Shown in pieces: positions 34,079-37,535 of a stretch of DNA of 64,000 nucleotides (position 1 is the stretch's first letter; each line of letters opens with the position of its first letter). The stretch is from positions 17,546,001 through 17,610,000 of the forward strand of contig OZ024754.1 in the NCBI GenBank assembly GCA_964016885.1. The letters run 5' to 3'. The position numbers and the translations under genes were made by a program. The notes under the pieces are model-generated. The model made no database searches and was not told where the DNA came from. It saw only the letters and a program-made list of their open reading frames with translations. The DNA is from Eledone cirrhosa. Lineage: Eukaryota.

Positions 34079-34159
34079 CTATGTGTGGCAATCATCATCA
34101 ATTAGTTTGTACTGATTGTATCTCCAAGGTTTATATAATATAACTGTCATACACTGGAC
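34079..34159 (-). CDS. Double-cystatin-like gene, exon 5 (VQCMTVILYKPWRYNQYKLIDDDCHT*)
   Basis: ttttacaaacAG acceptor, phase 0, cystatin PW motif and C-terminal Cys pair, TAG stop. Confidence 0.8.
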   Translation of the reverse strand, partial: VQCMTVILYKPWRYNQYKLIDDDCHT

Positions 34160-34524
34160 CTGTTTGTAAAAGGAATGGGTTAATGGATGAATTAATGTGA
34201 AACAAAGAGTCAAGTTGTTGTTGTTGGTGGTGGTAGTGGTGGTGGTGGTATCGGTGGTGATGGTATTGGTAATGTTGGTGGTGGTGGTGGTGGTGGTGTC
34301 GTGCTGGTGGGGTGGTGAGATGGTGGTGTGGTAGTATGGTGGTGGTGATAGTAGTGGAGATGTTGATGATGGCAGAGGTGGTGGTGGTGGGGTGATGGTG
34401 TTAGTGGTGGAGGTGACAATCAGGATGATGATGACAATGATGATGATAGTGAAACCAACCAAGAACTGAATGTATTTGTTATATATTTAGAGAGGAAGAA
34501 ATGTGGTATAAAATATAATCTTAC

Positions 34525-34593
34525 AGGTTTTTCTTTTGGTGATTTCAACTTCACAACTTCAACATTTATTATATAGATTATTCCAATTTCATA
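34525..34593 (-). CDS. Double-cystatin-like gene, exon 4 (YEIGIIYIINVEVVKLKSPKEKP)
   Basis: poly-T-cAG acceptor, GTAAGA donor, 69 nt, phase 0-0; aligns with cystatin xVxG-xxY-x-x-x-V-E. Confidence 0.82.
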
Positions 34594-34739
34594 CTGAAAA
34601 AAAAAATAGAGTAAAAAAATATAAATATTGACCCATTCGCGGCAATATTTCTAGTGAAATACATTCATTTCAATTAATTTATGAAGAATTTTGAGGTATT
34701 TACTAAAACTATTATTTATTTCACAAGATAGTATTTTAA

Positions 34740-35312
34740 ATGTAAAGTGGTAAGGTTGATGCCACAATAAAATACACCCAGTCCTCTCTGTAAAGTGGTA
34801 GTGCTGGTGTCACAATAAAATGTACCCAGTACACTCTGTAAAGTGGTAGTGCTGGTGCCACAATAAAATGTACCCAGTACACTTTGTAAAGTGGTAGTGT
34901 TGGTGCCACAATAAAATGTACCCAGTACACTCTGTAAAGTGGTAGTGTTGGTGCCACAATAAAATGTACCCAGTACACTCTGTAAAGTGGTAGTGTTGGT
35001 GCCACAATAAAATGTACCCTGTACACTCCGTAAGGTGACACCAGCACTACCATTTTACAGTGTACTGGGTACATTTTATTGTGGCACCAGCACTACCATT
35101 TTACAGAGTGTACTGGGTACATTTTATTGACACCAGCACTACCACTTTACAGAGTGTACTGGGTACATTTTATTGTGGCACCAGCACTACCACTTTACAG
35201 AGTGTACTGGGTACATTTTATTGTGGCACCAGCACTACCACTTTACAGAGTGTACGGGTACATTTTATTGTGGCACCAGCACTACCACTTTACAGAGTGT
35301 ACTGGGTGCATT
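34740..35312. repeat. 47-bp minisatellite arranged as two inverted blocks (switch near 35036)
   Basis: ~6 copies of tgtaaagtggtagtgctggtgccacaataaaatgtacccagtacactc, then ~6 reverse-complement copies. Confidence 0.92.
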
Positions 35313-35374
35313 TTGGAAATAGGATTTATAGCATTTATATTTTCTTCAAAATTTCCAGATAAGTAAAAGATTAC

Positions 35375-35596
35375 CTTTTTATAAGCCCTGATAATTTTAA
35401 CCAGTCTCCGGCCATACTTTTTCAGAGACATATTCAAGAATGGTTTCAGGGCTTGTATCTCGTGTCGTTTAGTATTGATGGATGGTGCCGGAATCTTTTT
35501 ACCTTTTGGTGTTACATACTTAAGGCAAGTGTACTTTTCCAAGGTGAAATTAGTATCATTGTAGATGTTCAAATAGAATGTACATTCATGACCATA
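35375..35596 (-). CDS. Double-cystatin-like gene, exon 3 (YGHECTFYLNIY...RRLVKIIRAYKK)
   Basis: cttttccactacAG acceptor, AAG|GTAATC donor, 222 nt open, phase 0-0; ends domain 1 and starts domain 2. Confidence 0.82.
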
Positions 35597-35931
35597 CTGT
35601 AGTGGAAAAGTATTGTTTGATGGTTATATTATTACAAAACAGTTGAGAAACAATATTTCCAAAGGAACAAGTTTAGATTTGAACTGGCAGGTGACCCAGA
35701 GGTTCAAATCCTACTCTGGTCACTAACTCTTAACATCTTGTAATGATTTAGCAGAAAATATTTCATAACAAGTTTGTTAATTCAAATGTTTATAGTATCT
35801 TTACTAGTGAACAGATCATTGTTTTTCTGCAATACCTAACTAGTACTTATATTATTAACCTTTCAAAAAGATAAAAACAAATTATACATGGTGGAATGTT
35901 TGTCTAAGAGTGAGGTAATTCAGTTGTGAAA

Positions 35932-36276
35932 TCATCATCATCATCATTTCATTTTACGTCCGCTTTTTCCCTGCTTGCAAGGGTGGGACGGGAACTGATT
36001 CTGGCTTGATTTCTACAGCTGGATGCCCTTCCTAACACCAACCTCATTTACAGTGAGTGCTGGGTGCTTTTTTGCCGTGGCACCTCCACAACCACTTTGC
36101 AGTAGAATGATAGGGACCCCAGCCCCTATCATCTCATTTCTACAGCTGAGTAAACTGGAGCAATGTGAAATAAAGTGTCTTGCTCAAGGAAACAACACAT
36201 CACCCGGTCTGAGAATTAAACTCACAACCTTTCGATTGCAAGGCCAATGCTCTAACCACTAAGCCATGTGCCTCCA
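35932..36276 (-). mobile_element. Full-length family B CORE SINE (intronic)
   Basis: Reverse complement of 21850-22190, including the ggaggcacatggcttagtgg head. Confidence 0.9.
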
Positions 36277-36346
36277 TATATATAATTTATAATAGGAATA
36301 AATATGAAACTTAAGATTGAGATGGTAATAATATCAAAATATATAA

Positions 36347-36567
36347 ATAATTGTTTCTACTTTAAGCACAAGGCCAGCAATTTTGGGGGAGAGGAAAGTC
36401 GATTAAATTGATCCCAGTGTGTGACTGGTACTTTATTTTATCAACCCCGTAAGGATGAAAAGCAAAGCTAACCTCAGCAGGATTTGAACTCAAAACATAA
36501 AGAACCATAACTCTATGCTGCGAAATATGGGATCTGATCTTCTACCGATACTGCTAATCCACCGCCC
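36347..36567 (-). mobile_element. Family A SINE (intronic)
   Basis: Family A head, core and aaagtagaaacaatta tail. Confidence 0.8.
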
Positions 36568-36781
36568 TTAAATTCAGATGAGTTAATCTTTTTCATTATT
36601 TTTAAAATATATAAATAATGAAAAAGATTAACTTATCTGAATTTGAATCGCTATGTTAAAAAAAAGAAATGTCTATGCCATAGAAATACCAAATTAAATA
36701 TTAGAAGTTATCTAGTCACATGTTCCACTATTTCTGTTATTCTAAAGCCTTTGGATTATTAAATATAGAAATCCTACGTAC

Positions 36782-36847
36782 CTCCAGTTTCATTTCTTTC
36801 TTGGAACTTACTCGACAAACAATCCGCATTGTTTCCTCTTCTCTGTG
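36782..36847 (-). CDS. Double-cystatin-like gene, exon 2 (HREEETMRIVCRVSSKKEMKLE)
   Basis: tttgtattttTAG acceptor, GAG|GTACGT donor, 66 nt, phase 0-0. Confidence 0.72.
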
Positions 36848-36913
36848 CTAAAAATACAAAACACCTTAAACTAAAATTAATAACAGCAAACCTCTGACAT
36901 AAATTTGTTTTAA

Positions 36914-37118
36914 CCCTTTAGTATTTACATTACTCTATATTTACTATTGTATTTTTGTGGTAAAGGCTTTACCTCACATAATTATTTCACATAATATTGA
37001 ATCTACGAGATTTTGATGTTAATTATTTTCAGAACAATGCCTTAACTTCAGTTACAGCTGGTTTGGACAGAAAGAGGTGAGAGAATGGCCAGATACGACC
37101 GGTTTAAATGCTAAAGGG
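36914..37118. mobile_element. piggyBac-type MITE
   Basis: TTAA|CCCTTTAG(T/C)ATTTA ... TAAATGCTAAAGGG|TTAA; a related end occurs at ~39920-40065. Confidence 0.78.
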
Positions 37119-37319
37119 TTAATGTTTAACATCCTGCAATGATTTAGTAGAAAATATCTAAAAAAAAATTTGGCAATTTAAGTATTTAGAGTATCTTTTC
37201 ATGTAAACAGAACAAAATCTAAAGAAAAAATTTTACCTCTAGAATAAAATTCATCATCATCATCATCATAAATAGTTCCAAGTTAAAAAGACAAAGAAGA
37301 AAAGCAAGAGAATACTAAC

Positions 37320-37535
37320 CAATGTTTCTGCCTCCACAACAGACGTAAGATGTAATGATGTATACGTGTTTTTCTTTATTGCACATGGACAAATAATATG
37401 AGAAACAGCATAGTTGGCCACTTTCTGAACAAAGGAGCTGTTCACGTTCAATTGTTCAGCTCTAATCCATCCAAAGAAACTTCCAGAAAATACCATTAGC
37501 AGAAATACTTTTACACACGTAGACCAAGAATCCAT
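37320..37535 (-). CDS. Double-cystatin-like gene, exon 1 (signal peptide + N-terminal helix of domain 1)
   Basis: MDSWSTCVKVFLLMVFSGSFFGWIRA|EQLNVNSSFVQKVANYAV...VVEAETL; donor TTG|GTTAGT, phase 0. Confidence 0.82.

What the first reader, a model, noticed from the sequence alone, without database searches (positions are those of the whole stretch)
34079..37535. Hidden 5-exon secreted protein with two divergent cystatin domains lacking QxVxG
Seen: five exons (216, 66, 222, 69, 81 nt) with canonical splice sites and phase-0 introns join into a 217-aa ORF with a signal peptide. Established: type-2 cystatin genes have phase-0 introns after the Q of QxVxG and before the last CxF strand. Both positions recur twice here, which supports a tandem duplication of the cystatin module. 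The inhibitory loop is replaced (L|HREE in domain 1, K|YEIG in domain 2), PW survives only in domain 2, domain 1 has an extra CPC, and domain 2 is strongly basic. Inference: a non-canonical cystatin-fold protein, possibly repurposed for an antimicrobial, salivary/venom or reproductive role rather than papain inhibition.
Basis: partly seen in the sequence, partly recalled or inferred. Interest (0 to 1): 0.72.

Follow-up and report, generated by a model that had tools for sequence, protein, structure and literature searches.

The report
Octopus double cystatin lacking inhibitory wedge
A real five-exon octopus gene encodes a likely secreted protein predicted to consist of two cystatin (protease-inhibitor-like) units that lack the usual inhibitory motif but keep an invariant Cys-Pro-Cys loop, so it likely binds a different partner, as vertebrate latexin and fetuin-B do.

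Summary
The gene is real. Five minus-strand exons (216/66/222/69/81 nt, GT-AG, phase 0) give a 217-aa protein. It is 76% identical to 'uncharacterized' RefSeq models of Octopus sinensis and O. bimaculoides that are joined at the same places. A second clade of five unnamed proteins, 30-35% identical to the Octopus protein, extends the family. AlphaFold2 on one of these (pLDDT 75) gives two helix-plus-sheet units. Each matches cystatins (Z 10-11), and Foldseek ranks fetuin-B, a two-domain phytocystatin and latexin first. Neither unit has QxVxG at hairpin I, and the fetuin-B CPDCP/QWVxGP motifs are absent. New here: conservation is concentrated in domain 1 (32 of 95 invariant positions against 17 of 95). 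It includes an invariant Cys-Pro-Cys after the helix and His-Glu-Cys at the start of strand 4, both inferred to lie on the edge that latexin and legumain inhibitors use. The basic charge of domain 2 is not family-wide (+14 here, -1 and +2 in the second clade), which weakens the antimicrobial idea. Tissue and target are unknown. Verdict: a new variant of non-canonical tandem cystatin, of moderate interest.

The parts
37320..37535 (-). Exon 1 (residues 1-72): signal-peptide-like N-terminus, helix 1, CPC loop and strand 2 of cystatin domain 1
37458..37535 (-). Likely signal peptide, about residues 1-26 (cleavage site not determined)
   Evidence: hydropathy; hydrophobic N-terminus in all five distinct family proteins
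37383..37391 (-). Invariant C49-P50-C51 directly after helix 1 (the loop that carries the legumain site in type-2 cystatins)
   Evidence: loop identity
36848..37319 (-). Intron 1 (472 nt, phase 0), at the position of hairpin I of domain 1
36782..36847 (-). Exon 2 (residues 73-94): acidic hairpin I (E76, E77 invariant) and strand 3 with C83, which is present only in the octopod sequences
35375..35596 (-). Exon 3 (residues 95-168): strands 4-5 of domain 1 (H97-E98-C99, C118), linker, and helix and strand 2 of domain 2; no intron between the domains
35582..35590 (-). Invariant H97-E98-C99 at the start of strand 4 of domain 1
34525..34593 (-). Exon 4 (residues 169-191): degenerate hairpin I and strand 3 of domain 2
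34079..34159 (-). Exon 5 (residues 192-217 and TAG): C194, P202-W203, C215-H216
34073..34078 (-). Donor-like GTAACA directly behind the stop codon; the orthologous models diverge from each other at exactly this point, so a further (here untranslated) exon is possible

Best explanation
This is a conserved five-exon octopod gene, found once in this genome, whose likely secreted product is predicted to fold as two tandem cystatin domains, lacks QxVxG in both, and likely works as a binding partner or regulator of an extracellular protein other than a papain-family protease (most likely a zinc metallopeptidase or legumain), through the 'back' edge of domain 1. Shown: gene structure, orthologues, absence of QxVxG/CPDCP/QWVxGP, invariant C49-P-C51, E90, H97-E98-C99 and Y116-T-C118-x-K120, and stronger conservation of domain 1. 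Predicted: the two cystatin folds (on family member P0006) and the disulfides C99-C118 and C194-C215. Inferred from cystatin topology: the post-helix loop, the strand 3-4 turn and the end of strand 5 lie together on the edge opposite the papain-binding wedge; the CPC (as a tight disulfide or a free thiol pair) fixes or arms that loop, which docks on the partner, while domain 2 serves as scaffold and varies in charge by lineage. The fold-and-lost-wedge part I put at about 0.9, the back-edge peptidase-binding mechanism at about 0.45.
For: Orthologues with the same junctions. Reciprocal best match of the distant members to this locus. Model with two beta1-helix-four-strand units. Both halves match cystatins at Z 10-11; among the top 18 rows of the wide search only two are not cystatin-superfamily by title. 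Foldseek E 1e-5 to fetuin-B and 4e-4 to latexin over both domains. The family profile aligns domain 2 in register with chicken cystatin (E 5.5e-4). Invariant positions across 8 sequences: 32 of 95 in domain 1, 17 of 95 in domain 2; the best 8-residue windows (6 of 8, baseline 0.26) are the CPC loop and the HEC strand, while hairpin I of domain 2 has none of its tip residues invariant and hairpin II only the Pro. Octopod members carry an N-glycosylation sequon in hairpin II of domain 1 (N110 in 3 of 3), which would obstruct the wedge, and all 8 have a sequon before helix 1. [quoted passage not shown] Loss of papain inhibition with a change of target class has happened repeatedly in cystatins (PMC2784779, section 14).
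Against: No target, expression or activity data were obtained. The 8 sequences are only 5 distinct proteins in two deep clades, so invariance is coarse and the best windows were picked after the fact; much of the HEC strand is fold core. The confident model is of P0006 (about 37% identical to the window's protein over the mature part: 41 of 94 and 28 of 94), while the O. sinensis protein folded with a shallower alignment reached only pLDDT 38.8. The CPC region has low confidence (block 51-60 pLDDT 54) and pTM is 0.48, so neither loop geometry nor domain packing is known. Two-domain superpositions on fetuin-B and latexin have rmsd 15-17 A. The sequence-profile signal is close to noise: myoglobin scored E 0.006 in the same search. 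The loop Asn is not in one register across the family. E76-E77 at hairpin I of domain 1 are also invariant, so the front edge may matter too.
Confidence: 0.45

Rival explanations
1. Metal-binding or redox protein: C49, C51 and H97 (with E90/E98) form a Cu or Zn site, or the CPC is a redox-active disulfide, grafted on a cystatin scaffold.
For: CPC, E90, H97 and E98 are invariant. The second clade adds His/Asp-rich stretches in exactly these two loops (9 His in domain 1 against 4 in octopods). A redox-active cystatin domain exists in histidine-rich glycoprotein (4ccv title, Z 9.2).
Against: The geometry was not obtainable (no coordinates returned; loop pLDDT 54). The His-rich stretches are absent from octopods. 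In the secretory pathway two close cysteines are more often oxidised (own knowledge).
Confidence: 0.2
2. Structural or matrix protein: the CPC cysteines link chains into disulfide-bonded dimers or polymers in a secreted coat, in the manner of non-inhibitory CRES-type or dimeric cystatin F proteins.
For: Two extra invariant cysteines in an exposed loop; octopods have an odd number (7) of mature cysteines. CRES and dimeric cystatin F are among the tied best fold matches (Z 10.6-10.7).
Against: The seventh cysteine (C83) is Gly in the second clade and lies in a core strand. Fold ties do not show function. The gene is found once, not amplified.
Confidence: 0.13
3. Cationic antimicrobial or membrane-binding protein acting through basic domain 2.
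For: Domain 2 has net charge +14 and pI about 10 in this species and +8/+9 in Octopus. Several non-inhibitory cystatin relatives gained antimicrobial activity (PMC2784779 section 14).
Against: Net charge is -1 and +2 in the second clade, and domain 2 is the less conserved domain. It may still be an octopod add-on.
Confidence: 0.12
4. Still a papain-family inhibitor, weak or narrow, using a degenerate wedge in domain 2 or the acidic hairpin of domain 1.
For: PW is kept in 7 of 8 sequences; the hairpin-I Gly survives in octopods and the Gln in P0006-P0009; E76-E77 are invariant.
Against: No member has QxVxG at hairpin I; Gln and Gly never occur together; no conserved Gly in the linker before domain 2; P0005 has lost the Trp; sequon in hairpin II of domain 1.
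Confidence: 0.1

Closest known systems
Type-2 cystatins (MEROPS I25B: cystatin E/M, C, chicken cystatin, CRES, tick cystatins)
   Same: Fold of each domain (Z 10-11, rmsd about 3 A over 82-97 residues); signal-peptide-like N-terminus; cysteines of the C-terminal disulfide in each domain; PW in domain 2.
   Different: Two domains; no QxVxG; no cysteines for the first disulfide (short strand 3-4 connection); extra invariant CPC after helix 1; 10-19% identity.
Fetuin-B (two cystatin domains, astacin/meprin inhibitor)
   Same: Best Foldseek match over both domains (E 9.8e-6); secreted tandem cystatin; domain-1 hairpin I acidic and non-canonical (fetuin-B CY1 HYQEDMGS).
   Different: No CPDCP in the linker, no QWVxGP in domain 2, no C-terminal region; the CPC here is after helix 1, not in the linker; rmsd 16-17 A across domains; fetuin-B orthologues were reported only from jawed vertebrates (PMC6400186).
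Latexin (two cystatin domains, carboxypeptidase A inhibitor)
   Same: Same size and two-domain plan (E 3.6e-4; domain 1 Z 10.7); no QxVxG-type inhibition; acts through the edge opposite the wedge.
   Different: Latexin uses its C-terminal domain and has a helical linker, whereas conservation here is in domain 1 and the linker is a low-confidence coil; no Pfam latexin hit.
Cestode tandem cystatins and two-domain phytocystatins
   Same: Invertebrate or plant cystatins with a duplicated, degenerate second domain (PMC4390278; 2mzv E 1.1e-4).
   Different: In the cestode proteins the first domain keeps G/QxVxG/PW and conserved disulfides are missing; here both domains lack the motif and disulfide cysteines are kept.
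Octopus LOC118765248 (XP_036362888.1) and LOC106870522 (XP_014772135.2)
   Same: Orthologues, 76% identical, same junctions.
   Different: Named only 'uncharacterized protein'; no Pfam or NCBIfam cystatin hit; less basic domain 2; models run on past the point where this gene stops.

Membership tests
Cystatin superfamily (fold) | One helix lying across an antiparallel sheet (beta1-helix-beta2-5) | tested here: met
   Predicted for both domains of family member P0006, pLDDT 75; Z 10-11. The window's own spliced protein was not folded.
Type-2 cystatin (I25B inhibitor) | Signal peptide | tested here: inconclusive
   Hydrophobic N-terminal stretch in 5 of 5 distinct proteins and a sequon before helix 1 in 8 of 8; no signal-peptide predictor available.
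Type-2 cystatin (I25B inhibitor) | QxVxG at hairpin I | tested here: not met
   Absent at hairpin I in both domains of 8 of 8 sequences; one QxVxG-like string occurs in P0005 but at hairpin II of domain 1.
Type-2 cystatin (I25B inhibitor) | PW at hairpin II | tested here: inconclusive
   Domain 2: PW in 7 of 8; domain 1: 0 of 8.
Type-2 cystatin (I25B inhibitor) | N-terminal trunk with conserved Gly | tested here: inconclusive
   Domain 1 has a Gly at the end of the signal-peptide region, with cleavage site unknown; no conserved Gly in the linker before domain 2.
Type-2 cystatin (I25B inhibitor) | Two C-terminal disulfides per domain | tested here: not met
   Only the pair for the last disulfide is present in each domain (C99/C118, C194/C215); the bonds themselves are predicted.
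Type-2 cystatin (I25B inhibitor) | Inhibits papain-family proteases | not testable with these tools
   Needs an assay.
Legumain-inhibiting cystatins (C, E/M, F) | Asn39-equivalent in the post-helix loop | tested here: inconclusive
   An Asn is in the domain-1 loop of 8 of 8 but not in one aligned column, and the loop is longer and carries CPC (feature from PMC8070812).
Fetuin-B | CPDCP trunk in the linker | tested here: not met
   No CPxCP in 8 of 8; no Cys in the linker (feature from PMC6400186).
Fetuin-B | QWVxGP at hairpin I of domain 2 | tested here: not met
Latexin | Sequence family membership (Pfam latexin models) | tested here: not met
   No latexin hit at E<=10 for P0001, P0002, P0005-P0009; HMMER filters drop weak hits.
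Latexin | Two domains packed through their helices, joined by a helical linker | tested here: inconclusive
   Linker predicted as low-confidence coil; pTM 0.48; rmsd 15.8 A.
Stefin (type 1) | No signal peptide, no disulfides, QVVAG within one exon | tested here: not met
   The genome's stefin-like exon keeps QVVAG unsplit (L005); this gene has an intron at the equivalent place and paired cysteines.
Cathepsin F-type cystatin pro-domain | Fused to a downstream papain-family catalytic domain | tested here: not met
   Stop at residue 217; 0 of 34 Peptidase_C1 matches lie on contig C14; second-clade proteins end at the same Cys-His.

The most novel reading that the evidence does not exclude
A cephalopod family that independently arrived at the fetuin-B/latexin plan and uses a new warhead: a Cys-Pro-Cys loop with a neighbouring His-Glu on the back edge of cystatin domain 1 that binds a metal, either the catalytic zinc of a metallopeptidase (cysteine-switch-like inhibition) or its own Cu/Zn ion.
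Probability: 0.2. Interest if true: 0.7.

Novelty: new variant of a known kind. Interest (0 to 1): 0.42.

Why it matters
A 2009 phylogenomic survey placed the functional diversification of cystatins in only a few multicellular lineages, with plant and vertebrate examples (PMC2784779, section 14). This family gives an invertebrate two-domain cystatin in which both domains have lost the papain wedge and a different surface is conserved. Pfam and NCBIfam do not recognise it. It is small, found once in the genome and easy to express, so the target can be tested directly. A CPC-based metal or peptidase site would be a further use of the cystatin scaffold. Without a target or a tissue it remains a tidy annotation of an orphan gene.

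Tried and rejected
RNA evidence: no RNA holder listed; the three runs laid were contigs of one sample without splice joints at these introns among the rows shown. This says nothing on expression. Pfam: 0 families for the five exons and for P0005-P0009; only sub-threshold ApeA_NTD1/Peptidase_S46 hits for P0001/P0002; NCBIfam 0. First AlphaFold2 run (P0002, 7 rows): pLDDT 38.8. Foldseek on it gave nothing under E 0.001, top rows MHC-I-like, rejected as an artefact of a poor model; VIA on it gave only Z<=5. Domain 1 against domain 2 by single sequences: no similarity above shuffles (p 0.11-0.83); by profile only P=0.05. Myoglobin profile hits (E 0.006-0.04) rejected: all-helical target against a predicted sheet region. 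ESM Atlas scores were 0.84, leads only, though all ten best named hits fell in one clan. Paralogues: none in the window or in 20 kb on each side; genome searches with exon 1, exon 3, P0005 and P0006 found only this locus convincingly. A weak hit on C8 (E 0.055) has three stops, no CPC and 1.6 bits against the family profile, taken as chance. SQAPI search of the genome rang nowhere, controls included, so it is uninformative on whether canonical secreted cystatins exist here. Literature: 7 of the 10 searches looked for this gene or a cephalopod/mollusc cystatin like it and none listed a paper describing it (listings only). The gene ids, accession or the word cystatin were sought in supplements of four octopus papers: no hit but one cystatin-B row; one file was a scan and one was cut when stored, so they may still hold it. 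Main text of PMC12607849 has no mention of cystatin. The paper on human cystatin C gene structure was not held.
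Full report
Observation. The five exons are on the minus strand at 37535-37320, 36847-36782, 35596-35375, 34593-34525 and 34159-34079. Their lengths are 216, 66, 222, 69 and 81 nt, all four introns are GT-AG and phase 0, and the join reads 217 codons to a TAG. The introns are filled with simple and dispersed repeats: k-mer depth in three runs of one sample is about 10 in the bins over exons 2, 3 and 5, about 20 over exon 4, 10-280 over exon 1, and 1e4-1e6 in most intron bins. 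The splice signals alone are only moderately strong, so the model rests on relatives.

Relatives. Exon 3 found two database proteins, from Octopus vulgaris and O. sinensis. The O. sinensis cluster also holds O. bimaculoides XP_014772135. All are named hypothetical or uncharacterized. The O. sinensis and O. bimaculoides models align to the spliced protein without gaps, 165 and 164 of 217 identical, across all four junctions; the O. vulgaris model joins the same exons 2-5 to a different first exon. An HMMER scan of 1.84 billion representatives returned 3 proteins at E<=0.001: two of these and P0005 (E 3e-21). P0005 led to P0006 and its three near-identical cluster members P0007-P0009. These five are unnamed records, 217-219 aa, on contigs of 920-1028 bases, colinear with the spliced protein; I infer they are transcripts of other cephalopods, but no organism is given. 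Searched against this genome, P0005 and P0006 hit this locus first. No convincing paralogue was found. Nothing outside these two clades reached significance, so the family looks narrow in the collections searched.

Fold. Pfam and NCBIfam do not recognise any member as a cystatin. Family profiles against PDB sequences put chicken cystatin first (E 0.004, then 5.5e-4 with more members), with K168-Y-E-I-G172 of domain 2 in register with QLVSG. This is weak on its own, since myoglobin reached E 0.006. AlphaFold2 on the O. sinensis protein failed (pLDDT 38.8). On P0006 with the 12-row alignment it gave pLDDT 75.4 (four of five models above 70), pTM 0.48, and two units of strand-helix-four strands. 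VIA-align matched residues 22-126 to cystatin E/M (Z 11.0-11.2, rmsd 2.7-3.7, 92-97 residues), CRES, mialostatin and cystatin F, and residues 131-219 to tarocystatin (Z 10.4-10.6) and chicken cystatin (Z 10.2-10.4). Foldseek ranked fetuin-B (E 9.8e-6), a two-domain phytocystatin (1.1e-4) and latexin (3.6e-4) first, because both domains align, but at rmsd 14-18 A. The relative placement of the domains is therefore unknown. Atlas feature searches pointed the same way at lead level (0.84).

Duplication. The two domains share no significant sequence similarity as single sequences. Profile alignment gives an in-register match at P=0.05 in which introns 1 and 3 fall in the same column and introns 2 and 4 two columns apart. 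Exon 3 carries the end of domain 1 and the start of domain 2 without an intron, so five exons equal 3+3-1; I infer an old internal duplication with fusion of last and first exons, or later intron loss. That type-2 cystatin genes have three exons is in PMC8070812 (passage). The exact intron positions are recalled, and flatworm cystatin genes differ among themselves (PMC4390278, section 10). The stefin-like exon in this genome keeps QVVAG unsplit, so the layout is not stefin-type. No papain-family domain was found on contig C14 (0 of 34 matches), which excludes a cathepsin F-type pro-region.

What is lost and what is kept. The papain wedge consists of an N-terminal segment, QxVxG and PW (PMC2784779, passages). 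No member has QxVxG at hairpin I. Domain 1 has an acidic turn there (E76, E77 invariant). Domain 2 keeps the Gly in octopods or the Gln in P0006-P0009, never both. PW is kept in 7 of 8 in domain 2 only. Octopods carry a sequon in hairpin II of domain 1. Fetuin-B's CPDCP and QWVxGP (PMC6400186, abstract and passages) are absent. Across 8 sequences (5 distinct, two deep clades) 32 of 95 positions are invariant in domain 1 and 17 of 95 in domain 2. The densest windows are the post-helix S45-A52 with C49-P50-C51, and H97-I105. E90, T117-C118-K120 and, in domain 2, D213-C215-H216 are also fixed. By cystatin topology (inference; no coordinates were returned) the post-helix loop, the strand 3-4 turn and the end of strand 5 meet at the edge opposite the wedge. 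C83 is octopod-only. The second clade has His/Asp-rich stretches in those same two loops. The net charge of domain 2 is +14 here, +9 and +8 in Octopus, -1 and +2 in the second clade.

Mechanism. The back edge is the one latexin uses on carboxypeptidase A and type-2 cystatins use on legumain (PMC8070812, passages). Change of target class after loss of papain inhibition is documented for fetuins, latexin, CRES and SQAPI (PMC2784779, section 14). I therefore commit to a secreted regulator that binds a non-papain peptidase or other extracellular protein through the CPC loop of domain 1 (0.45). Rivals: a Cys2-His metal or redox site (0.2), a disulfide-linked structural oligomer (0.13), a cationic antimicrobial (0.12), and residual papain-family inhibition (0.1).

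Novelty. Tandem cystatins with degenerate motifs are known in vertebrates, plants and cestodes. This family fails the membership tests for type-2 inhibitors, fetuin-B and latexin while sharing their fold. Seven literature searches aimed at it listed no description (listings only), nor did supplements of four octopus papers (one file unreadable, one cut). Five look-ups in this scan's earlier notes found nothing on it; one search returned only unrelated IL-6-like genes. Papers seen: PMC2784779 (passages, section 14), PMC4390278 (passages, section 10), PMC8070812 (passages), PMC6400186 (passages with abstract), PMC12607849 (term search), bioRxiv 10.64898/2026.09.24.752146 (abstract and outline; not used), PMC9712504, PMC11202624, PMC7693380, PMC6635378 (supplement term searches only). 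Verdict: observation confirmed, interpretation partly supported, new variant of a known kind, interest 0.42.

Noticed in passing
window about 52,500-62,900, minus strand: Another gene or gene cluster with tandemly repeated exons of about 70-80 codons encoding a coiled-coil repeat (e.g. 62856-62605, 59733-59476, 58692-58399, 57500-57255, 56254-55994), followed by further coiled-coil exons at 55369-54896 and 52846-52568.
   Followed up: no
window 37521 (exon 1, codons 3-5): A 6-nt in-frame deletion in the signal-peptide n-region is seen in contigs of runs X2 and X3 but not X1, all of one sample: likely a heterozygous allele; the Octopus orthologues have the longer form.
   Followed up: partly
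window 34073-34081: The stop TAG is directly followed by a donor-like GTAACA. The orthologous models have Gln here and then diverge (read-through, two extra residues, or an unrelated long tail), while the second clade stops one residue earlier, so the true 3' end is uncertain in the database models.
   Followed up: partly
L005 (G000:C17:20914866-20914964): Canonical stefin-like exon with QVVAG; the only match over the Pfam cystatin cut-off in this genome (1 of 4 listed matches).
   Followed up: partly
G000:C7:28.32-28.43 Mb: Tandem cluster of at least four to five papain-family (Peptidase_C1) genes.
   Followed up: no
window 8407-10119 (-), 12699-15542 (+), 15494-18958 (+), 60943-61806 (-), 1835-2726 (-): Retrotransposon (LINE-type) ORFs, one of 948 codons, a Tc1/mariner-like transposase and DDE-transposase-like fragments; labels are my recall from the translations.
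   Followed up: no
window about 32,900-33,810; 34,770-35,310; 45,500-50,000: Minisatellite arrays of roughly 40-50 nt units; the one in intron 3 switches orientation at about 35,035.
   Followed up: no
L015:3033-3287 (G000:C8:18536032-18536286): Weak, stop-interrupted similarity to domain 1 of P0006 (E 0.055 genome-wide); 1.6 bits against the family profile, taken as chance.
   Followed up: yes
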